This document shows, in pieces, positions 27,687 to 63,446 of a DNA stretch of 64,000 nt. Source of the stretch: Dehalococcoidia bacterium (GTDB lineage Bacteria > Chloroflexota > Dehalococcoidia > Lucifugimonadales > SHYT01). The translations under genes were made by a program, and so were the position numbers. Location of the stretch: contig SHYT01000006.1 of assembly GCA_009692665.1 (NCBI GenBank), positions 14,224-78,223 of the forward strand. Direction: 5' to 3'. The notes under the pieces were generated by a model that saw only the letters and a program-made list of their open reading frames with translations, searched no databases and was not told the origin of the DNA. Numbering within the stretch: position 1 is the stretch's first letter; each line of letters opens with the position of its first letter.

Positions 27687-27717
27687 CGTAGGGGCGGGTT
27701 TGAAACCCGCCCCTACG
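27687..27717. repeat. GTAGGGGC-type palindromic hairpin (possible terminator of the DinB gene)
   Basis: CGTAGGGGCGGGTTTGAAACCCGCCCCTACG is a 31-nt near-perfect palindrome. It shares the outer stem GTAGGGGCG/CGCCCCTAC with the hairpins at 48403 and 62753 and lies about 80 nt 3' of the minus-strand DinB gene. Confidence 0.6.
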
Positions 27718-44272: not shown

Positions 44273-44441
44273 GGATGCTATTAATACCATGCGGCCCGGT
44301 TGTCATGCTTCGGCAGCGGCCTCAGTGAAGCAGAGCGGGACCCTGAGTTGCTGACTCCAAGCCTGGCCGAGGGGCCGAACGGGCATCTTGGGTTGCGGGT
44401 TCCCGTCTAAAGATTCAGGATGACAACCAGGGGTGGACCCA

Positions 44442-45263
44442 ATGGGCTACCAGCGCATCGAAGACCAGCTCCACGTTGTCACGCAGCGCGGCGAGGTAGG
44501 CTTCATTCCGTACCTCACCGTAGGCTACCCGGATGTGCGCGCTACTGTGCTTCTAGTGGAAACGCTTGCCAAGGCAGGCGCCACCATTATTGAGCTTGGC
44601 ATCCCGTTCAGCGACCCCCTGGCAGACGGCCCTACCATTCAGAAGGCCAGCCTCCAGGCCCTGCAACACGGCGTCAAAGTTGTTGACTGCCTGGATGTTG
44701 TTACCCAGGCCCGCAAACGCGGCGTCAAAACACCTCTCGTCTTCATGAGCTACTACAACCCACTCCTGGCCCACGGCTTGGCCAACATTGCCCACCTGGC
44801 CTGTCAGGCCGGCGCCGACGGCTTCATTGTGCCTGACCTGCCCACGGAGGAATCCGGCCCCTTCCACGACGCCTGTGCAGTGGAAGGCATGGCCCTCATT
44901 CCTCTTCTCACGCCTACCAGCAGCCCGGAGCGCGTAGCGCTCGGCTGCTCCAAAGCGCGCGGCTTCGTGTACTGCGTGAGCGTCACCGGCGTCACCGGAG
45001 CGCGACAGGACCTTGCGCCGGATATCCGGCCGCTGGTGGAATCTATCCGCAGAAGCACCAGCCTGCCAGTGGCCGTAGGCTTCGGCGTCTCGCGCAAAGA
45101 ACACGTCGCTGCCGTGGGCCAGTTCGCGGACGCGGCGGTGGTCGGCAGCGCCCTCATAGACGTCATCGGCAAGTCGCCCAGGCGGCAGGTGCGTTCTCAC
45201 GTTCAGGCCTTTGTGGCAGAATTAACCCACGTCAAAAAGAATGCGGAGCAGGTGCGACTATGA
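44442..45263 (+). CDS. trpA: tryptophan synthase alpha chain
   Basis: FIPYLTVGYPD, IIELGIPFSDPLADGPTIQ, and VGFGVS. ATG 44442 is preferred; the track start is GTG 44433. No trpB lies adjacent. Confidence 0.9.
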   Translation: MGYQRIEDQLHVVTQRGEVGFIPYLTVGYPDVRATVLLVETLAKAGATIIELGIPFSDPLADGPTIQKASLQALQHGVKVVDCLDVVTQARKRGVKTPLVFMSYYNPLLAHGLANIAHLACQAGADGFIVPDLPTEESGPFHDACAVEGMALIPLLTPTSSPERVALGCSKARGFVYCVSVTGVTGARQDLAPDIRPLVESIRRSTSLPVAVGFGVSRKEHVAAVGQFADAAVVGSALIDVIGKSPRRQVRSHVQAFVAELTHVKKNAEQVRL

Positions 45264-45637
45264 CCCTGGCTTGCCGCGGCATCCGCGGGGCTACCACCGC
45301 TGAAGCCAACACTCGAGACGCCATCGCCAAAGCCACGCAGGAGCTCCTGGAAGAGCTTATCAAGGCGAACGACATCAGGCCTGAGAACGTCGCCGCCGCC
45401 ATCTTCAGCACCACGCGCGACCTGACCGCCGCCTACCCTGCAACCACCGCGCGCGTGCACTTTGGCTGGACGCACGTGGCCTTCATGTCCACCCACGAGC
45501 AAGAAGTCCCGGACGACCTCAAGCACTGCATCCGCGTCCTGGTGCTGGTGAATACCGAGAAAAAACAAGAGGAAGTCCGCTTCGTATACCTGAAAGAGGC
45601 TGTAGCCCTGCGCAACCGGGGTGTGACGACCTCGTAA
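45260..45637 (+). CDS. aroH: chorismate mutase, AroH class
   Basis: 125 aa. CRGIRGATTAE.NT..AI..AT.ELL......N........AIFSTT.DL is the AroH-type signature. ATGA overlap with the trpA stop. Confidence 0.85.
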   Translation: MTLACRGIRGATTAEANTRDAIAKATQELLEELIKANDIRPENVAAAIFSTTRDLTAAYPATTARVHFGWTHVAFMSTHEQEVPDDLKHCIRVLVLVNTEKKQEEVRFVYLKEAVALRNRGVTTS

Positions 45638-45728
45638 AAGGCGCAGCACAAATGAACGCAGCGATTGCTTCCCACCCGCTGCGTTGATTTATCCTTAAGG
45701 GCAGACAGCCCAAACGCATAGGTGACCG

Positions 45729-46694
45729 ATGAAAGCCCTGGAAGAATTGAGCGCCATCAGGCCAGGCCATGACACCGCCATCATCGTCGGTGTGTTCGAC
45801 GGCGTTCACCTGGGCCATCAACACCTGCTCCGCCAGTTGAGAGCCCGCGCACGGGAGCTGCATCTGCAAAGCACTGTCGTGACCTTCAAAAATCACCCAC
45901 GAGAAGTCCTCCACCCGGAGATGGACGTCCCGGCTCTCTCCACCCTGGCGCGTCGTGTCAGCATCATGCACACGCTCGGCATCGAGCTTGTTGTGCCGCT
46001 GACATTTGACCTGGAGCTTTCTAACCTCACCGCCCGCCAGTTCCTGGACATTCTCTATGACAAGCTTCGCATGCGTGCGCTCGTCGTCGGCCCGGACTTT
46101 GCGTTGGGCCACAACCGGGAAGGCACCGCACCCGTGTTGCACACATTGGGCAAAGACATAGGGATCCATACCAGCCAGGTCACGCCGCTGCTGCTGGACG
46201 GCCGTCAGATCAGCAGCACCGAAATCCGCCGCTACCTGGCGGAAGGCGATGTGGTCACCGCTGCGCGCTACCTAGGCAGGCCCTACTGCCTGGAAGGCCG
46301 CATTGTGCATGGCGACCGCCGTGGTTCCGATTTGGGTTACCCTACCACCAATCTGCAGGTGGAGCCCGGCACCTCTATTCCTAAGAACGGCATCTACGCC
46401 ACCTGGGTCTCCGTCAAAGGCAAACGCTACCCCTCCGCCACCAGCATCGGCGTGCGCCCCACGTTTGGTGAAAGCCTTGGACGCACCATTGAAACGTTCA
46501 TCCTGGACTTCAGCGATGACATCTACGGCCAGCCCATGAGCCTGGAATTCGCTCGGCGCCTGCGTGACGAGCTGAAGTTTGACTCCCCAGAAGCCCTCAT
46601 CTCCCAGATTGACCGTGACGTTGCCGACACTAAAATTGCGCTCAGCCTGTCCGACTGGATGCTGGAGATGTCCCCGCTCCGGTGGAGACAATAA
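45729..46694 (+). CDS. ribF: bifunctional riboflavin kinase / FMN adenylyltransferase
   Basis: 321 aa. VGVFDGVHLGHQHLL, and the kinase part GRIVHGDRRGSDLGYPTTNL...GIYATWV, E.FILDF..D.YG. Confidence 0.9.
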   Translation: MKALEELSAIRPGHDTAIIVGVFDGVHLGHQHLLRQLRARARELHLQSTVVTFKNHPREVLHPEMDVPALSTLARRVSIMHTLGIELVVPLTFDLELSNLTARQFLDILYDKLRMRALVVGPDFALGHNREGTAPVLHTLGKDIGIHTSQVTPLLLDGRQISSTEIRRYLAEGDVVTAARYLGRPYCLEGRIVHGDRRGSDLGYPTTNLQVEPGTSIPKNGIYATWVSVKGKRYPSATSIGVRPTFGESLGRTIETFILDFSDDIYGQPMSLEFARRLRDELKFDSPEALISQIDRDVADTKIALSLSDWMLEMSPLRWRQ

Positions 46695-46703
46695 CCCCCT
46701 GCC

Positions 46704-47132
46704 GTGCGCTCTTGCCGGGAAGCGCTACTATGGAAGCGCCGCATCGGCCCTGAGAAGCCAGGCCAGGAAGTCCGATCGGCCTACGACGGCCCATCAGGTC
46801 TGCAAGCTGTCTTGGACTCTCCGCCGGACATTGTGCTCCTGGATATCGGCATGCCGGGCATGGACAGCTACGCAGTGGCAAAGAAGCTCCGCGAATAAGA
46901 GGCGCTCAAAAACGTTGTGCTGGTCGCCTTAACCGGCTACGACCAGGAAGCCAACCTGCGTAACTCTCGCGACGCAGGGTTCGAATTCCACCTGGCCAAG
47001 CCGGTTACCGTTGGGTCGCTGCGCCAGCTCTTGCAGTCCGTCAAGGAGTTGAAGAGCTCGCGGGAGGGGGGGGGTAACGCAACGCCCTTACAAAATCACA
47101 AAGGCCTTGACACATCTCTAACATCCTGCTAA
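46704..47132 (+). pseudogene. remnant of a response-regulator receiver domain (N-terminally truncated, in-frame TAA)
   Basis: [84 protein letters not shown] is one continuous receiver domain in a single frame, interrupted by TAA at 46896. The DD acidic-pocket N-terminus is missing. Confidence 0.6.
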
Positions 47133-47136
47133 TAAT
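47107..47136 (+). promoter_or_regulatory. sigma-70-like promoter positioned for a leaderless transcript starting at the leader-peptide ATG
   Basis: TTGACA (47107-12), an 18-nt spacer, then AATAAT (47131-36). The ATG at 47144 begins 7 nt after the -10, and no SD lies between them. Confidence 0.5.
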
Positions 47137-47143
47137 CAGTACA

Positions 47144-47215
47144 ATGAATACCTTGAACGGGTTTTTCTATTACTTCTGGTTTACAGACGCCCGCCATAGG
47201 GAGGCTGCCTCGTAG
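47144..47215 (+). CDS. candidate leader peptide MNTLNGFFYYFWFTDARHREAAS (7 consecutive aromatic codons)
   Basis: 23-codon ORF read directly. TTT TTC TAT TAC TTC TGG TTT at 47162-47182. It is followed by alternative hairpins and the DAHP synthase gene. Too short to appear in the ORF track. Confidence 0.55.
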   Translation: MNTLNGFFYYFWFTDARHREAAS

Positions 47216-47241
47216 CGTAGTTTTTCAACCGAGCGCTCGCG

Positions 47242-47271
47242 AAGCCCTCCCATACGGAGGGCTTTTATTTT
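47242..47271 (+). terminator. intrinsic terminator / attenuator hairpin upstream of DAHP synthase
   Basis: AAGCCCTCC, loop CATAC, GGAGGGCTT (9 bp), followed by TTATTTT. It ends 31 nt before the aroG ATG. Confidence 0.65.
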
Positions 47272-47302
47272 GGCATTCAGCAATAACAGAAAGGAAGCCT
47301 CC

Positions 47303-48376
47303 ATGACACAGATTTACGACGTCAATGTCAAAAATATCCAAGCTCTTCCCACGCCCAGGGAGTACCTGGAATCCTTGCCCATCACCGACGCCGTTGCAGA
47401 GACCGTCCGCAGGGGCCGCCGCCAGATTGCGGATATTATGTCCGGCAAAGACAAGCGCATGCTCGTCATCGTCGGCCCGTGCTCCATCCATGACCTCAAG
47501 GCCGGCACCGAGTACGCGAACCGCCTGAAGGAACTTGCCCGGCGCTATGAGGACCAGATGCTTGTGTCCATGCGCGTGTACTTTGAGAAGCCGCGCACCA
47601 CGGTAGGGTGGAAGGGCATGGTCTACGACCCCCACATGAACAGCACGTACGACATCACCACCGGCCTGCGCATGGCCCGTGAGTTCTTGCTCAACGTGGG
47701 CGCAATGGGCCTGGCGGCCGCCACCGAGTTCGTGGACCCCATCACACCGCAATACATCGCTGACCTCGTCTCCTGGGGCGCCATTGGCGCGCGCACGGCT
47801 GAGAGCCAGACGCACCGGGAAATGGCCAGCGGCCTGAGCATGCCCATCGGCTTCAAGAACGGCACCGGCGGCAGCGTGCAGCTTGCCGTGGACGGCGTTG
47901 TCGCTTCCCAGGCCGCGCACGCTTTTCTGGGTGTGGACGGCAACGGCAAGGCGTCCATCGTTATGACCAAGGGCAACCCCAACTGCCACATCGTCCTGCG
48001 CGGCGGCTCCCGTGGCCCCAACTATGACGCCACCTCCATCGCCGACGCTGTTGCTCTTCTGAAGTCAGCCAAGGTGCGGACGCAGCTCATCGTGGACTGC
48101 TCCCACGCCAACTCCAACAAGGACCACACCCGCCAGGCCGCCGTCTACCGCGACCTGCTCAAGCAGCGCCTAGCCGGCAACGAGGACATCGTCGGCATCA
48201 TGCTGGAAAGCCATCTGAACCCCGGCGCGCAGAAGCTGGACGAGCGCGACCCCTCCAAGCTCAAGTACGGCGTCTCCATCACCGATGCCTGCATCGGCTG
48301 GGACGAGACCGCCGCTCTGCTGGCCGAGTCCTATGAAACCCTCAAGTCACGGCAGCAGGTCAGCGCGGGGCGGTAA
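47303..48376 (+). CDS. aroG: 3-deoxy-7-phosphoheptulonate (DAHP) synthase, class I
   Basis: 357 aa from ATG 47303 (AAAGGAAG upstream). LVIVGPCSIHD, VYFEKPRTTVGWKG, WGAIGARTAESQ.HRE.ASGLS.P.GFKNGT.G and KLKYG.SITDACI are typical of AroF/G/H-type enzymes. Isoenzyme specificity is unknown. Confidence 0.9.
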   Translation: MTQIYDVNVKNIQALPTPREYLESLPITDAVAETVRRGRRQIADIMSGKDKRMLVIVGPCSIHDLKAGTEYANRLKELARRYEDQMLVSMRVYFEKPRTTVGWKGMVYDPHMNSTYDITTGLRMAREFLLNVGAMGLAAATEFVDPITPQYIADLVSWGAIGARTAESQTHREMASGLSMPIGFKNGTGGSVQLAVDGVVASQAAHAFLGVDGNGKASIVMTKGNPNCHIVLRGGSRGPNYDATSIADAVALLKSAKVRTQLIVDCSHANSNKDHTRQAAVYRDLLKQRLAGNEDIVGIMLESHLNPGAQKLDERDPSKLKYGVSITDACIGWDETAALLAESYETLKSRQQVSAGR

Positions 48377-48402
48377 CACTCGCCAAACGTCTGCACGTAC
48401 AG

Positions 48403-48436
48403 ACCGTAGGGGCGCAGCATGCTGCGCCCCTACGGT
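48403..48436. repeat. GTAGGGGC-type perfect 34-nt palindrome downstream of aroG (probable terminator)
   Basis: ACCGTAGGGGCGCAG, loop CATG, then CTGCGCCCCTACGGT (15-bp stem), 27 nt after the aroG stop. No T tract. Confidence 0.6.
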
Positions 48437-48493
48437 TGTTAACACGCCCCGTCCGCTACAATATCCCTAGCCAGCCAAACCCAAAGAGGCGCC

Positions 48494-49675
48494 ATGCTAG
48501 ACCAAGCCACCATCCACAAGCTCACCCGCCGGGGCGTCGCTGAAATCGTCTCTGAAGAGGAGTTCGTCAGGCTCCTCCAAGCGGGCGCGCCCCTGCGCCT
48601 CAAGATGGGCTTCGACCCATCCCGCCCGGACTTGCACCTGGGACACGTCGTCGGGCTGCGCAAGCTGCGGCAGTTGCAGGACATTGGCCACCAGGTCGTG
48701 CTCGTCGTCGGCGACTGGACGGCGCAGATCGGCGACCCGTCCGGCCGCTCCGCCACCCGCACCATGCTCACCGCGGAAGAGGTGAGGTCCAACGCCCTCA
48801 CGTACATGGAGCAGTTCTTCCGCATCGTGGACAAGCAGAAGACCGAAGTCCGCTGGCAGACCGAGTGGTTCGGCAAGTTCACGCTGAAAGACGTGGTGCG
48901 ACTCACCGCCAAGTTCACCGTCGCCCAGTTCCTCCAGCGCGAGGACTTCCGCAAGCGCTTCGACGCCGGGCACCCCATCGCCATCACGGAGCTGCTCTAT
49001 CCGCTCATGCAGGCGTACGACTCCGTCGTCATCCGCTCAGACGTGGAGTTCGGCGGCACGGATCAGAAGTTTAACCTGCTGGTGGGCCGGGAGCTGCAGC
49101 AGATGCAGGGCATGCGGCCGCAGCAGTGCTTCATGGTGCCCATCCTCGTCGGCATAGACGGCGTCCAGAAGATGTCCAAGAGCCTCAGCAACTACATCGC
49201 CGTTGACGAGCCGGGCGCCGACCAGTACGGCAAGGTCATGTCGCTGCCCGACGCTGAAATCGTCCCGTACTTTGAGCTGCTCACCGACACGCCGGACGCC
49301 GAGCTTGCCGAGATGCGCGCGCACATCGCGGGCGGCGCCGTCAACCCCATGACGCTGAAAAAACGCCTCGCCCACGAAATCGTCCGCATGCTGCACGGCC
49401 CCGAGGACGCGCAGGCGGCGCAGGAGCACTTTGAGCGCGTGCATCAGCAGGGGGACATTCCAGCCGACATCCCCACCTACGCCTTCAACGGCGCGCCCCT
49501 CGTAGACGTGCTCGTCAGCGCAGGCCTCGCCGCCAGCAAGAGCGAGGCGCGGCGGCTGGTCGCCCAAAAGGCGGTTGAGGTGAACGGCGCCGCCGTTTCC
49601 CCAGAGACACCGCCAACCTTGAAAGCCGGCGACGTGATCCGCGTGGGCAAGCGGCGGTTCGTGAAGCTAGGCTAG
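48494..49675 (+). CDS. tyrS: tyrosine--tRNA ligase
   Basis: 393 aa. HIGH-type motif (PDLHLGHVVG), KMSKS, GDPSGRS, and the C-terminal S4-like domain (SKSEARRLVAQKAVEVNG). Confidence 0.95.
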   Translation: MLDQATIHKLTRRGVAEIVSEEEFVRLLQAGAPLRLKMGFDPSRPDLHLGHVVGLRKLRQLQDIGHQVVLVVGDWTAQIGDPSGRSATRTMLTAEEVRSNALTYMEQFFRIVDKQKTEVRWQTEWFGKFTLKDVVRLTAKFTVAQFLQREDFRKRFDAGHPIAITELLYPLMQAYDSVVIRSDVEFGGTDQKFNLLVGRELQQMQGMRPQQCFMVPILVGIDGVQKMSKSLSNYIAVDEPGADQYGKVMSLPDAEIVPYFELLTDTPDAELAEMRAHIAGGAVNPMTLKKRLAHEIVRMLHGPEDAQAAQEHFERVHQQGDIPADIPTYAFNGAPLVDVLVSAGLAASKSEARRLVAQKAVEVNGAAVSPETPPTLKAGDVIRVGKRRFVKLG

Positions 49676-62752: not shown

Positions 62753-62791
62753 GTAGGGGCGTCCGCCTTCGGCGGATGCCCCTACTTTTCC
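62753..62791 (+). terminator. GTAGGGGC-type hairpin plus T tract: intrinsic terminator of the exporter operon
   Basis: GTAGGGGCGTCCGC, loop CTTCG, then GCGGATGCCCCTAC (14 bp including one G-T pair), followed by TTTTCC. It lies 42 nt after the permease stop. Confidence 0.65.
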
Positions 62792-62888
62792 GCCCTCTTC
62801 TTTTTCTAACGGAACAGGACACCCAACGCTTGCATCACACGCACTGCGGCGATTTACTTTGCTCAGCACGACTTTTGGTACTTTTGGT

Positions 62889-63446
62889 ATGGAGGCGAAG
62901 CACGTGAAAACCGAAGAAATAATCATGCGCAGTAGAACACCACTCATTGACCCCAACACTGTCACCCAGGCCTGGCTTTTGGCGGAACTCGAGCGGCAAG
63001 AAGCAGAGCGCCGGGAGCAAGCAGCGCAGCGTGCTACGCCTCCACCCCTCCCGCCCCAGCCACCGGCCCAACACGGATCACCCAACAGCGGTGCGCAGAA
63101 GCAACCTGCCCCTGCGTCTGTCGCAGACCCGGCATCCTCAGCAGAAGCGCCGCCGCAGCCCAAGCGCGGACGAGGCGCCCCAAAAGGCAATCGCAACGCC
63201 TATAAGATCGGCTATTATTCCAGAGTCTTGTCCCCGGAAAGTCAGAGTGGCCTCGATGACATGCCCAGGAGCAACAACCTTGAAAATGAGATCGCTACCA
63301 TGCGCATTAAATTGAAGCAGTTGCTGGCCGACCCAAACGCCTCCATAAGGGATATGAATGCCGTCGCGCGTACCCTCACTACCTTTGTCGGAATGCGGCA
63401 CAAAATCAACACGGCTCGCGTCTGGATGGAGTATCCTCCCCAGTAG
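62889..63446 (+). CDS. hypothetical protein with a Pro-rich linker and a GAPKGNRNAYK motif
   Basis: Track ORF 62859-63446. ATG 62889 or 62925 are possible starts. The RGRGAPKGNRNAYKIGYYS motif resembles motifs I recall from small proteins in phage/mobile contexts (unverified). Followed by an AT-rich non-coding stretch. Confidence 0.4.
   Translation: MEAKHVKTEEIIMRSRTPLIDPNTVTQAWLLAELERQEAERREQAAQRATPPPLPPQPPAQHGSPNSGAQKQPAPASVADPASSAEAPPQPKRGRGAPKGNRNAYKIGYYSRVLSPESQSGLDDMPRSNNLENEIATMRIKLKQLLADPNASIRDMNAVARTLTTFVGMRHKINTARVWMEYPPQ

What the first reader, a model, noticed from the sequence alone, without database searches (positions are those of the whole stretch)
47107..47302. Candidate ribosome-mediated attenuator: leaderless 23-codon uORF with FFYYFWF upstream of DAHP synthase
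Seen in the sequence: (i) TTGACA (47107-12), an 18-nt spacer, then AATAAT (47131-36). (ii) An ATG at 47144 only 7 nt after the -10 and with no Shine-Dalgarno sequence, which is the geometry of a leaderless mRNA. (iii) The ORF MNTLNGFFYYFWFTDARHREAAS has seven consecutive aromatic codons (47162-47182: 4 Phe, 2 Tyr, 1 Trp). (iv) A 9-bp hairpin AAGCCCTCC/GGAGGGCTT (47242-47264) followed by TTATTTT. (v) GGGAGGCT at 47199-47206, inside the last codons of the uORF, can pair with AGCCCTCCC (47243-47251); this gives 6 contiguous bp plus 2 more across a 1-nt bulge and occupies the 5' arm of the terminator, so it is a mutually exclusive antiterminator. (vi) A ribosome reaching the TAG (47213) would cover that segment and so favour the terminator. 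A ribosome stalled on the aromatic codons, at least 16 nt upstream, would leave it free and favour read-through. (vii) The SD and ATG of a class I DAHP synthase lie 31 nt downstream; this enzyme catalyses the first step common to Phe, Tyr and Trp synthesis. Established knowledge: leader-peptide attenuation with runs of the regulatory amino acid is classical for the trp, pheA, his and leu operons of Proteobacteria. I recall an aromatic-rich leader upstream of a DAHP synthase gene being reported in Corynebacterium, but cannot verify that here. Inference: a single attenuator sensing all three aromatic tRNAs at once, on a leaderless uORF, in a Chloroflexota-like genome would to my knowledge be undescribed for this lineage.
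Basis: partly seen in the sequence, partly recalled or inferred. Interest (0 to 1): 0.8.

Follow-up and report, generated by a model that had tools for sequence, protein, structure and literature searches.

The report
Aromatic-codon attenuator before DAHP synthase
A 23-codon upstream reading frame packed with phenylalanine, tyrosine and tryptophan codons, followed by a switchable terminator hairpin, very probably lets this Chloroflexota bacterium switch on the first enzyme of aromatic amino-acid synthesis only when those amino acids run short; the mechanism is the classical one and matters mainly as an uncatalogued example in a little-studied phylum.

Summary
Seven consecutive aromatic codons are expected about 0.0004 times in this window.

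Comparison decides the case. Seven non-redundant Chloroflexota-type DAHP synthase loci (68-76% protein identity) share the same architecture although the nucleotide sequence has diverged:
- an invariant TTGACA, then 30-36 nt to an ATG with no Shine-Dalgarno sequence;
- a 21-25-codon uORF with 5-8 Phe/Tyr/Trp codons;
- GGGRGG always 14-15 nt before the stop codon;
- a terminator hairpin with a T tract, usually 26-29 nt after the stop, and 25-51 nt before the DAHP synthase ATG.

In all 8 leaders GGGRGG pairs with the terminator's 5' arm when the 3' arm is left out. Masking a ribosome at the stop codon restores the terminator. One relative carries compensating changes in all three segments.

My best explanation is a ribosome-mediated transcription attenuator (confidence 0.85).

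Caveats:
- Trp codons occur in only 4 of 8 leaders, so Phe and Tyr are the conserved signals.
- Leaderless initiation fits the geometry but is unproven.
- No 1:2 hairpin is demonstrable.

Precedents are Corynebacterium glutamicum aroR-aroF and leaderless leader peptides in Actinobacteria and Deinococcus. No Rfam family matches. I rate it a new member of a known kind, of moderate interest.

The parts
47107..47112 (+). -35 hexamer TTGACA
   Evidence: It is invariant in all 8 family members, always 30-36 nt before the uORF ATG.
47127..47136 (+). -10 region TG-c-TAATAAT (TAATAA with a 17-nt spacer, or AATAAT with an 18-nt spacer)
   Evidence: Relatives carry CATAAT-like hexamers at the same distance from TTGACA. 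The predicted transcription start at about 47143-47144 is an inference.
47144..47215 (+). Leader uORF, 23 codons plus TAG: MNTLNGFFYYFWFTDARHREAAS. It has no Shine-Dalgarno sequence, so initiation is presumed leaderless.
   Evidence: Homologous uORFs of 21-25 codons occur in L161, L164, L165, L168, L169, L172 and L173.
47162..47182 (+). Regulatory codons F F Y Y F W F. The last one, TTT at 47180-47182, is the family-invariant Phe codon.
   Evidence: The uORF has 7 aromatic codons in frame against 1 and 3 in the other two frames.
47189..47192 (+). Invariant GCCC, a possible 'segment 1' of unresolved role
   Evidence: Invariant columns. Its pairing with segment 2 is no better than shuffles.
47199..47208 (+). 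Segment 2, the 5' strand of the antiterminator: GGGAGG, then a CU bulge, then GC
   Evidence: GGGRGG lies 14-15 nt before the stop codon in 8 of 8 leaders, although the reading frame differs in the window and in L168.
47199..47251 (+). Whole antiterminator structure. The outer helix is 47199-47208 with 47244-47251. The inner helix includes the stop codon. Energy is -24.8 kcal/mol when the terminator 3' arm is absent.
   Evidence: RNAalifold returns it as the consensus structure.
47241..47271 (+). Intrinsic terminator: 5' arm 47241-47250, loop 47251-47255, 3' arm 47256-47265, T tract 47263-47271
   Evidence: -17.0 kcal/mol. It is conserved in position in all 8 leaders. It forms in 8 of 8 when a ribosome at the stop codon is masked.
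47292..47297 (+). Shine-Dalgarno sequence (AGGAAG) of the DAHP synthase gene
   Evidence: In the window only, 47292-47302 can also pair with 47199-47210.
47303..48376 (+). Regulated gene: type I-alpha 3-deoxy-D-arabino-heptulosonate-7-phosphate (DAHP) synthase, 357 aa

Best explanation
This is a ribosome-mediated (leader-peptide) transcription attenuator that controls a type I-alpha DAHP synthase gene.

**Proposed sequence of events**
1. A sigma-70-type promoter (TTGACA / TAATAAT) starts the transcript at, or one nucleotide before, AUG 47144. A ribosome therefore loads without a Shine-Dalgarno sequence (inferred).
2. When Phe-, Tyr- and Trp-tRNA are plentiful, the ribosome runs to UAG 47213. 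Its footprint covers GGGAGG (47199-47204) and the stop-codon stem. When CCUCCC (47246-47251) emerges it can only pair with GGAGGG (47256-47261). The 10-bp terminator forms and RNA polymerase releases a transcript of about 127 nt at the T tract.
3. When an aromatic aminoacyl-tRNA is scarce, the ribosome stalls on codons 7-13. Stalls on the last codons, 47174-47182, are the most effective, because the ribosome's leading edge then ends near 47190-47196.
4. GGGAGG and the sequence after it stay free. They capture the terminator's 5' arm as soon as it is made, forming the antiterminator 47199-47251. Polymerase then reads into the DAHP synthase gene.

**Shown here**
- The sequence elements and their alternative pairings.
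- Their conservation and spacing in relatives.
- The enrichment of aromatic uORFs upstream of this gene family.

**Inferred**
- The transcription start.
- Translation of the uORF.
- Termination in vivo.
- Which amino acid(s) matter. Phe and Tyr are the conserved candidates. Trp is plausible in this genome because TGG is the second-to-last aromatic codon.
For: - **Family.** Among the closest DAHP synthase relatives (68-76% identity) whose upstream DNA could be read, seven non-redundant loci carry the same element: L161 (= L162, L163), L164, L165, L168, L169, L172 and L173 (sequences).
- **Spacing.** TTGACA is invariant and lies 30-36 nt before the ATG. The uORF has 21-25 codons. GGGRGG lies 14-15 nt before the stop codon. 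The terminator starts 26-29 nt after the stop (19 nt in L172, whose stem is longer). The DAHP synthase ATG follows 25-51 nt later.
- **Translation-level constraint.** The uORFs have 5-8 aromatic codons in frame against 0-2 and 2-4 out of frame.
- **RNA-level constraint.** GGGAGG is kept in the window even though it sits in a different reading frame (…HREAAS against …HRGRVAL).
- **Antiterminator.** Each leader has 6-10 contiguous pairs. Duplex energies are -15 to -22 kcal/mol and beat shuffles in 8 of 8.
- **Constrained folds.** The antiterminator forms in 8 of 8 leaders when the 3' arm is absent. The terminator forms in 8 of 8 when the stop-codon footprint is masked.
- **Consensus fold.** RNAalifold predicts the antiterminator as the consensus structure.
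- **Compensation.** L168 changed the terminator arms (GACCCGC/GCGGGUC) and segment 2 (GGGGGGUCA) together.
- **Not a terminator for an upstream gene.** The promoter sits between the upstream gene and the hairpin. In L161 the gene called upstream lies on the opposite strand.
- **Survey of 167 DAHP synthase loci.** A uORF with at least 6 aromatic codons in 9 occurs in 20 loci, against 1 of 167 on the reverse complement and 2 of 835 shuffles. Of 24 loci with a 5' terminator-like hairpin, 20 have an aromatic-rich uORF just upstream of it.
- **Experimental precedent.** C. glutamicum aroR-aroF.
Against: - There are no transcript-end, ribosome or expression data for this organism or any relative. Everything is sequence inference.
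- Covariation is thin. Seven of the eight leaders share the same GGGAGG/CCCUCC core, so L168 is the only independent compensatory event.
- With all segments present, the terminator state is only about 4-5 kcal/mol better than the antiterminator in the window, L164 and L172. In L161, L165, L169 and L173 the antiterminator is the minimum-free-energy structure. The switch therefore has to be kinetic.
- No convincing 1:2 hairpin exists.
- Three similarly close relatives (L166, L167, L174) have a different promoter region and no leader. The element is therefore not universal in the clade.
- Leaderless translation has not been shown for this lineage.
Confidence: 0.85

Rival explanations
1. The terminator/antiterminator switch is real, but a factor other than the translating ribosome sets it, such as an RNA-binding protein, a small ligand or an uncharged tRNA. 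On this view the aromatic uORF is incidental.
For: The two alternative structures are conserved at the RNA level. GGGAGG keeps its position regardless of reading frame. Untranslated RNA already folds into the antiterminator.
Against: - No T-box, riboswitch or other Rfam family matches, in the window or in 20 related loci.
- Aromatic codons stay in frame in 8 of 8 leaders while the nucleotides change.
- Aromatic uORFs are about 20- to 50-fold enriched upstream of this gene family.
- The fixed distance of 14-15 nt from GGGRGG to the stop codon only makes sense if the stop codon is read.
Confidence: 0.05
2. The leader peptide is an arrest peptide of the TnaC type. The nascent chain senses free aromatic amino acid and holds the ribosome at the stop codon, keeping segment 2 covered. 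On this view aminoacyl-tRNA supply is not what is read.
For: - It gives the same regulatory sign: excess amino acid leads to termination.
- The C-terminal half of the peptide looks conserved in most members (A-H-R-G-R-x-x-L).
- The SD-like GGGAGG lies at start-site spacing from the P site of a terminating ribosome.
Against: In the window the same nucleotides are read in another frame and give HREAAS, so the constraint acts on the RNA rather than the peptide. A cluster of 5-8 codons for the pathway's end products is the signature of tRNA sensing. No similarity to known arrest peptides was seen.
Confidence: 0.04
3. Control is mainly translational. The 3' end of the uORF (GGGAGGCUGCCU, 47199-47210) sequesters the DAHP synthase ribosome-binding region (AGGAAGCCUCC, 47292-47302), as in the mycobacterial Cys leaderless sORFs. 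The hairpin is then only a leaky terminator.
For: The minimum-free-energy fold of 47143-47303 contains this pairing. The duplex energy is -17.9 kcal/mol against a shuffle mean of -7.1 (p = 0.003). A precedent exists.
Against: The pairing is absent from all 7 relatives (p = 0.13-0.99), whereas the terminator and antiterminator are present in all. It may add a second layer in this genome only.
Confidence: 0.04
4. The features coincide by chance. The hairpin merely ends transcription from the upstream ribF and response-regulator remnant, and the uORF is never translated.
For: Hits to the loose terminator consensus are not rarer than in shuffles. The upstream genes are on the same strand.
Against: A run of 7 aromatic codons is expected 0.0004 times in the window. 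The whole arrangement recurs behind unrelated upstream genes, including a divergent one.
Confidence: 0.02

Closest known systems
Corynebacterium glutamicum aroR-aroF attenuator (Neshat et al. 2014, J Biotechnol 190:55; described in PMC11802643, PMC7356990 and PMC4046766)
   Same: - A short leader peptide with Phe and Tyr codons lies directly upstream of a DAHP synthase gene (aroF; that it is type I-alpha is from my memory).
- It produces short attenuated transcripts.
- Read-through rises under Phe limitation.
- From my memory of the abstract, which I could not verify here, the C. glutamicum attenuators are leaderless transcripts.
   Different: - AroR has only an F-Y-F motif. The window has seven consecutive aromatic codons, including Trp.
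- The phyla differ (Actinomycetota against Chloroflexota).
- Common descent could not be tested because the aroR sequence is not held. Convergence is likely, given that the families found here have unrelated sequences.
Escherichia coli pheL-pheA attenuator (Rfam RF01859, Phe_leader)
   Same: - A run of about 7 regulatory codons in a short leader peptide.
- A G+C-rich terminator with a very similar stem (AAGCCUCC…GGAGGCUUUU).
- Mutually exclusive antiterminator logic.
   Different: - pheL is led by a Shine-Dalgarno sequence.
- It senses Phe only.
- It controls pheA, not DAHP synthase.
- It has a 1:2 hairpin.
- The covariance model scores the window 18.9 bits against a gathering threshold of 55, and only over the terminator.
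Leaderless leader-peptide attenuators of Actinobacteria and Deinococcus (S. lividans leuL/ilvL/metL, PMC8079986; M. smegmatis poly-Cys leaderless sORFs, bioRxiv 10.1101/834739; D. deserti, 14 predicted, PMC4007540)
   Same: The regulatory uORF starts at or within a few nucleotides of the transcript's 5' end and has no Shine-Dalgarno sequence. [quoted passage not shown]
   Different: Those have mapped transcription start sites; this one does not. They involve other amino acids and other target genes. The mycobacterial case is translational, not terminator-based.
Escherichia coli trpL / Salmonella hisL classical attenuators
   Same: The position of the ribosome on a leader ORF selects between an antiterminator (2:3) and a terminator (3:4).
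   Different: The classical leaders have a 1:2 (or A:B) hairpin, so an untranslated leader terminates. Here no significant 1:2 pairing is found, and naked RNA folds into the antiterminator.

Membership tests
Ribosome-mediated (leader-peptide) transcription attenuators | A short ORF in the 5' leader of a biosynthetic gene, with a cluster of codons for the pathway's end product(s) | tested here: met
   The 23-codon uORF has 7 consecutive Phe/Tyr/Trp codons upstream of DAHP synthase. Such a run is expected 0.0004 times per window.
Ribosome-mediated (leader-peptide) transcription attenuators | An intrinsic terminator (G+C-rich hairpin plus U tract) between the leader ORF and the structural gene | tested here: met
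   The stem spans 47241-47265 and the T tract 47263-47271, at -17 kcal/mol. The position is conserved in 8 of 8 leaders.
Ribosome-mediated (leader-peptide) transcription attenuators | A mutually exclusive antiterminator whose 5' strand is covered by a ribosome that finishes the leader ORF and is left free by one stalled at the regulatory codons | tested here: met
   Pairings were computed and beat shuffles in 8 of 8 leaders. RNAalifold gives the antiterminator as the consensus. The ribosome footprint geometry is inferred.
Ribosome-mediated (leader-peptide) transcription attenuators | Conservation of the ORF, regulatory codons and structures upstream of orthologous genes | tested here: met
   Seven non-redundant relatives carry the element. 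Three others lack it.
Ribosome-mediated (leader-peptide) transcription attenuators | A 1:2 (anti-antiterminator or pause) hairpin, so that an untranslated leader terminates | tested here: not met
   Segment 1 to segment 2 duplexes are no better than shuffles in any of the 8 leaders (p = 0.08-0.77). This feature belongs to the trp/his archetype, not to the whole class.
Ribosome-mediated (leader-peptide) transcription attenuators | Translation of the leader ORF, and amino-acid-dependent premature termination in vivo | not testable with these tools
   This needs mapping of RNA ends, ribosome profiling or reporter assays.
Rfam RF01859 Phe_leader | Covariance-model score at or above the gathering threshold (55 bits) | tested here: not met
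   The score is 18.9 bits (E = 3.9) and the alignment covers only the terminator.
T-box leader and other catalogued cis-regulatory RNAs (Rfam 15) | Any family match at its gathering score in the leader | tested here: not met
   Nothing but one tRNA matches in the window. Nothing matches in 20 related loci.
C. glutamicum aroR-type attenuator (homology) | Sequence or structure similarity to aroR beyond the shared logic | not testable with these tools
   The aroR sequence and the primary paper are not held. Only secondary descriptions are available.
Leaderless mRNA | Transcription start at, or fewer than 6 nt before, the start codon, with no Shine-Dalgarno sequence | tested here: inconclusive
   No Shine-Dalgarno sequence is present. 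The ATG lies 7-8 nt after the -10 in the window, 6-10 nt after it in six relatives and about 13 nt in L168. No transcription start data exist.
Type I-alpha DAHP synthase (the regulated gene) | PF00793 domain and full-length similarity to AroG/AroF-type enzymes | tested here: met
   PF00793 scores 294 bits. The E-value is 1e-111 to E. coli AroG (1GG1) and 1e-110 to AroF (6AGL).

The most novel reading that the evidence does not exclude
The window's element may be one representative of several uncatalogued, apparently independent families of aromatic-codon attenuators on type I-alpha DAHP synthase genes. These families are spread over at least Chloroflexota, Desulfobacterota-type 'delta-proteobacteria' and Myxococcota.

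The Chloroflexota family would then work as a three-segment, leaderless variant:
- It has no 1:2 hairpin, so an untranslated leader defaults to ON.
- The terminating ribosome itself acts as the anti-antiterminator.
- The ribosome holds the Shine-Dalgarno-like GGGAGG, kept exactly 14-15 nt before the stop codon. It does so by its footprint and possibly by anti-Shine-Dalgarno pairing.
- In this genome the same strand can additionally sequester the DAHP synthase ribosome-binding site.
Probability: 0.3. Interest if true: 0.6.

Novelty: new member of a known kind. Interest (0 to 1): 0.42.

Why it matters
- **Regulatory logic.** DAHP synthase is the entry point of the shikimate pathway. In textbook organisms it is controlled by repressors (TyrR, TrpR) and by feedback inhibition. 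A translation-coupled sensor on this gene shows that uncultured Chloroflexota, and apparently several other phyla, gauge the supply of aromatic aminoacyl-tRNA directly at the committed step.
- **Annotation.** The 8-member family and the other families seen here are missing from Rfam. Gene callers did not call the uORF at any of these loci. They could therefore be added as new cis-regulatory families.
- **Translation in Chloroflexota.** The family would be indirect evidence for leaderless translation in this phylum.
- **Mechanism.** It offers a simple test of whether a leader-peptide attenuator can work without the 1:2 hairpin.

No long-standing question is opened or closed.

Tried and rejected
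- **Rfam.** An E-value scan of the leader, a gathering-threshold scan of the whole window and a scan of 20 related loci found no family. The weak Phe_leader hit is terminator-only.
- **Metagenome and genome scans with the protein.** These returned only relatives of 64% identity or less. The informative close relatives came from exact-protein look-ups (against 18-44).
- **Unusable look-ups.** P0005 (75% identity) has no DNA on file. The L171 contig is cut 171 nt upstream of the gene and is uninformative.
- **Covariance model.** Model R1, built from the 8 leaders, found no further member in 80 sources and no second copy in the window.
- **MAFFT alignments.** They put segment 3 one column out of register in some rows. 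I therefore counted helices per sequence with a script instead of using count of structure pairs.
- **Classical 1:2 hairpin.** GCCC pairing with GGGAGG is not supported.
- **Shine-Dalgarno sequestration as a family feature.** Rejected, because it occurs in the window only.
- **Second aromatic run at 62873-62890.** Rejected as an attenuator. It is a tandem 9-nt repeat with no start codon in frame, no terminator and an unrelated downstream gene.
- **A trp-type leader upstream of trpA.** None exists. The gap holds an acyl-carrier-protein gene.
- **Co-transcription of tyrS with DAHP synthase.** Unlikely. A 14-bp G+C-rich palindrome and a TACAAT -10-like site lie between them.
- **Literature.** I found no paper describing a DAHP synthase leader peptide in Chloroflexi or delta-proteobacteria. 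The library lacks most subscription journals, including Lopatovskaya et al. 2010 and Neshat et al. 2014.
Full report
**1. Observation**

- TTGACA lies at 47107-47112 and AATAAT at 47131-47136. The -10 can also be read as TG-c-TAATAA, an extended -10 with a 17-nt spacer.
- An ATG at 47144 follows with no purine-rich stretch before it.
- The 23-codon ORF MNTLNGFFYYFWFTDARHREAAS ends at TAG 47213-47215.
- Codons 7-13 are TTT TTC TAT TAC TTC TGG TTT (47162-47182).
- The hairpin spans 47241-47265: 10 bp counting a terminal G-U, 6 of them G-C, with a 5-nt loop. It runs into TTTTATTTT (47263-47271).
- AGGAAG lies at 47292-47297 and the ATG of a 357-aa protein at 47303.
- That protein is a type I-alpha DAHP synthase. 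PF00793 scores 294 bits, and the E-value to E. coli AroG and AroF structures is about 1e-111.

A run of 7 or more aromatic codons is expected 0.0004 times over the six frames of this 60% G+C window. The leader folds better than 200 of 200 dinucleotide shuffles (z = -3.0). The single promoter and terminator consensus hits are not by themselves rarer than in shuffled sequence.

**2. Context and organism**

The gene order is as follows:
- acyl carrier protein
- trpA (44433-45263)
- AroH-type chorismate mutase (45260-45637)
- ribF (45729-46694)
- a decayed response-regulator receiver with an in-frame TAA (about 46704-47080)
- the leader
- DAHP synthase
- tyrS (48494-49675)

A G+C-rich palindrome and a TACAAT -10-like site separate DAHP synthase from tyrS, so the enzyme gene is probably monocistronic. 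The best named relatives of both DAHP synthase and RuvB are Dehalococcoidia and Chloroflexota MAGs. The 'Chloroflexota-like' label therefore holds.

**3. Comparative test, the decisive evidence**

I read the DNA upstream of the closest DAHP synthase relatives (68-76% identity). Seven non-redundant loci carry the same element: L161 (= L162, L163), L164, L165, L168, L169, L172 and L173 (sequences).

Their leader peptides are:

| Locus | Leader peptide |
|---|---|
| L161 | MHRPTAFYYYYGFTYAHCGRAGL |
| L164 | MQRPYIYFYYFTYAAPFGRVAL |
| L165 | MSGLVAFWHPFYFSITAHRGREFL |
| L168 | MTNFYSYFYFGYRAQTRGVMS |
| L169 | MSRPTARFYYPWFTQAHRGRVAL |
| L172 | MSRSIAYLPYYFEFTYKARTGRVAV |
| L173 | MRNTSWFYYGYFTGARHGRDSL |

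The spacing is tightly kept:
- TTGACA is invariant and lies 30-36 nt before the ATG.
- The uORF has 21-25 codons.
- GGGRGG begins 14-15 nt before the stop codon in 8 of 8 leaders.
- The terminator starts 26-29 nt after the stop (19 nt in L172, whose stem is longer).
- The DAHP synthase ATG follows 25-51 nt later.

Mean column identity is only 57%. The upstream genes differ, and in L161 the upstream gene is divergent, so the hairpin cannot be the terminator of a preceding gene.

Two kinds of constraint can be separated.
- **Codon level.** The uORFs have 5-8 aromatic codons in frame against 0-2 and 2-4 in the other frames, and one TTT codon is invariant.
- **RNA level.** In the window (and in L168) GGGRGG is read in a different frame (…CAT AGG GAG GCT… gives HREA; elsewhere …GGG AGG… gives GR). 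It nevertheless keeps its sequence and its distance to the stop codon.

Three equally close relatives (L166, L167, L174) have a different promoter region and no leader. L171 is truncated.

**4. Structures**

- When the terminator's 3' arm is left out, mimicking the co-transcriptional intermediate, GGGRGG pairs with the distal half of the 5' arm in 8 of 8 leaders. An inner helix that contains the stop codon forms as well. In the window this structure spans 47199-47251 at -24.8 kcal/mol.
- When the footprint of a ribosome at the stop codon is masked, the terminator forms in 8 of 8.
- Per-sequence helices have 6-10 contiguous pairs.
- Duplex energies are -15 to -22 kcal/mol and beat shuffles in all eight.
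- RNAalifold on the region, terminator 3' arm included, returns the antiterminator as the consensus, with 7 of 11 pairs showing a double change somewhere. That alignment is imperfectly registered.
- L168 is the one clear independent compensation. Its terminator is GACCCGC/GCGGGUC and its segment 2 is GGGGGGUCA, pairing with UGACCC.
- With all segments available, the terminator state is favoured by about 4-5 kcal/mol in the window, L164 and L172. The antiterminator is the minimum-free-energy structure in L161, L165, L169 and L173. The decision must therefore be kinetic, as in other attenuators.

**5. Mechanism**

*Shown:* the elements, the alternative pairings, their conservation and the spacing.

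*Inferred:*
- Transcription starts at about 47143-47144.
- A ribosome initiates without a Shine-Dalgarno sequence.
- With ample aromatic aminoacyl-tRNAs the ribosome reaches UAG 47213 and covers roughly 47198-47228, which includes GGGAGG and the inner stem. Helix 3:4 then forms and transcription ends near 47270.
- A ribosome stalled with codons 11-13 (47174-47182) in its A site reaches only to about 47190-47196. Segment 2 then captures segment 3, and polymerase reads on into the DAHP synthase gene.
- The conserved 26-29 nt between the stop codon and the terminator fits a ribosome parked just short of the hairpin base.

**6. What is weaker or different**

- **Trp sensing.** Trp codons occur in only 4 of 8 leaders and at different positions. 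Phe and Tyr are the conserved signals. In the window TGG is the second-to-last aromatic codon, a position where a stall should be effective. Three-way sensing is therefore plausible here but is not a family trait.
- **No 1:2 hairpin.** The invariant GCCC (47189-47192) does not pair with segment 2 better than chance. Naked RNA folds into the antiterminator. An untranslated leader may therefore default to read-through, unlike trp or his.
- **Leaderless start.** It rests on geometry only. The -10 is followed by 7-8 nt before the ATG in the window, 6-10 nt in six relatives and about 13 nt in L168. None of the eight has a Shine-Dalgarno sequence.
- **Window-only pairing.** GGGAGGCUGCCU (47199-47210) can also pair with the DAHP synthase ribosome-binding region (47292-47302) at -17.9 kcal/mol (p = 0.003). 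This is not seen in the 7 relatives. It may be a second, translational layer or a coincidence.

**7. Wider survey**

- Among 167 class I DAHP synthase loci, 20 have a uORF with at least 6 aromatic codons in 9. The controls give 1 of 167 on the reverse complement and 2 of 835 shuffles.
- Of 24 loci with a terminator-like hairpin in the last 200 nt before the gene, 20 have an aromatic-rich uORF just upstream of it.
- At least two other families with unrelated sequences follow the same logic.
  - Desulfobacterota-type loci have peptides ending …GLPVLR or …GAPVVR. Their terminators are AAAGCCGCAGGC…GCCUGCGGCUUU. Their uORFs are led by Shine-Dalgarno sequences, and several carry two tandem terminators. 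Examples are L016, L026, L044, L054, L102, L105, L140, L150 and L158.
  - Myxococcota loci L028 and L039 have M..SRR.FWFGYW…AATGSSL.
  - L009 (Dehalococcoidia) has a YYYY leader with a terminator.
- None of these matches an Rfam family.

**8. Comparison with what is known**

- The closest described system is C. glutamicum aroR-aroF. It has a leader peptide with F-Y-F upstream of the aroF DAHP synthase gene, short transcripts, and read-through under Phe limitation.
- Homology to it could not be tested, because neither the sequence nor the primary paper is held.
- Leaderless leader peptides are documented in Streptomyces lividans, Mycobacterium smegmatis and Deinococcus deserti.
- An early comparative study of Actinobacteria found no RNA elements for Phe/Tyr genes.
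- A 2005 survey cites predicted attenuators before aroF-tyrA in Vibrio.
- I found nothing on Chloroflexi or delta-proteobacterial DAHP synthase leaders in the held library. That library omits most subscription journals.
- The window is not a member of Rfam Phe_leader (18.9 against 55 bits).

**9. Verdict**

The element is real and well supported. It is very probably a classical ribosome-mediated attenuator (confidence 0.85). It is a new member of a known kind, and every individual feature has a precedent. Interest is moderate (0.42). Its value lies in annotation, in new Rfam-type families, in indirect evidence for leaderless translation in Chloroflexota, and in a testable three-segment variant.

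Noticed in passing
window 62873-62890 (+): A second run of aromatic codons (TTT TGG TAC TTT TGG TAT). It is a tandem 9-nt repeat (CTTTTGGTA x2) in the 5' region of an ORF that probably starts at GTG 62904. Its frame has no ATG/GTG/TTG after the stop at 62807, no terminator follows, and the downstream gene is unrelated to aromatic metabolism. I judge it a chance feature.
   Followed up: yes
window 46704-47080 (+): A decayed response-regulator receiver domain (PF00072, 31 bits on 46704-46895) is interrupted by an in-frame TAA at 46896-46898 and lacks its N-terminal part. A run of about 10 G follows near 47064-47076.
   Followed up: partly
window 44433-49675; L166, L167, L174: The aromatic neighbourhood runs trpA, chorismate mutase (CM_1), ribF, receiver remnant, leader, DAHP synthase, tyrS. 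Relatives without the leader have trpA-CM_1-DAHPS (L167), or DAHPS followed about 2 kb later by ribF-tyrS (L166, L174). The leader-plus-DAHPS unit therefore looks rearranged relative to them.
   Followed up: partly
window 27688-27716, 48406-48433, 62753-62785 (+): Three intergenic hairpins share the outer stem GTAGGGGC…GCCCCTAC (0 expected in shuffles). This may be a repeated terminator-like or REP-like element. The copy at 48406 separates DAHP synthase from tyrS.
   Followed up: partly
window 47199-47210 with 47292-47302: The antiterminator strand GGGAGGCUGCCU can also pair with the DAHP synthase ribosome-binding region AGGAAGCCUCC (-17.9 kcal/mol, p = 0.003). This occurs in the window but in none of the 7 relatives.
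   Followed up: yes
L016 304-381, L026 2824-2895, L044 2352-2432, L054 2834-2911, L102 2345-2404, L105 2325-2405, L140 2330-2407, L150 2310-2390, L158 2211-2345, L117 561-635, L103 2280-2363: A different attenuator family sits upstream of class I DAHP synthase in Desulfobacterota-type genomes and in metagenome contigs. Its leader peptides have 6-9 F/Y/W in 9 codons and end in …GLPVLR or …GAPVVR. The uORFs are led by Shine-Dalgarno sequences. The terminators are AAAGCCGCAGGC…GCCUGCGGCUUU, and several loci carry two tandem terminators. No Rfam family matches.
   Followed up: partly
L028 1411-1482, L039 2834-2905: Myxococcota DAHP synthase leaders encode MLSRRHFWFGYWPAQAAATGSSL and MASRRFFWFGYWRAETAATGSSL. 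An imperfect terminator (AAAGCCCCGGUCGCCGCAAAGCGACGCGGGGCUUUC in L039) follows each. No obvious Shine-Dalgarno sequence precedes the uORF.
   Followed up: no
L002 2730-2858, L004 2681-2848, L005 2703-2840, L006 2762-2851, L007 2683-2841: Marine Dehalococcoidia DAHP synthase loci share a longer upstream ORF ending in a conserved Tyr/Phe-rich tail (…YFGYTYTGGLFTYGRSYRS). It ends about 130 nt before the gene, and my scan found no canonical terminator. Its nature is unknown.
   Followed up: no
L009 2740-2823: This Dehalococcoidia leader, MKISWDGCIYYYYRLAGYQIAGEGLVR, has four consecutive Tyr codons and a strong terminator 31 nt after the stop. It looks like a Tyr-biased variant.
   Followed up: partly
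window 47189-47192 and the aligned positions in 7 relatives: GCCC is invariant, 6-9 nt after the invariant TTT codon, in all 8 leaders. It does not pair with segment 2 better than chance. In naked-RNA folds it pairs with the terminator's 3' arm around the antiterminator. Its role is unexplained.
   Followed up: partly
window 47204-47225 (+): A small hairpin, GCUGC-CUC-GUAGC, spans the stop codon and is followed by GUAGUUUUU. The terminator scan flagged it. It is not conserved in relatives and might be a pause site.
   Followed up: no
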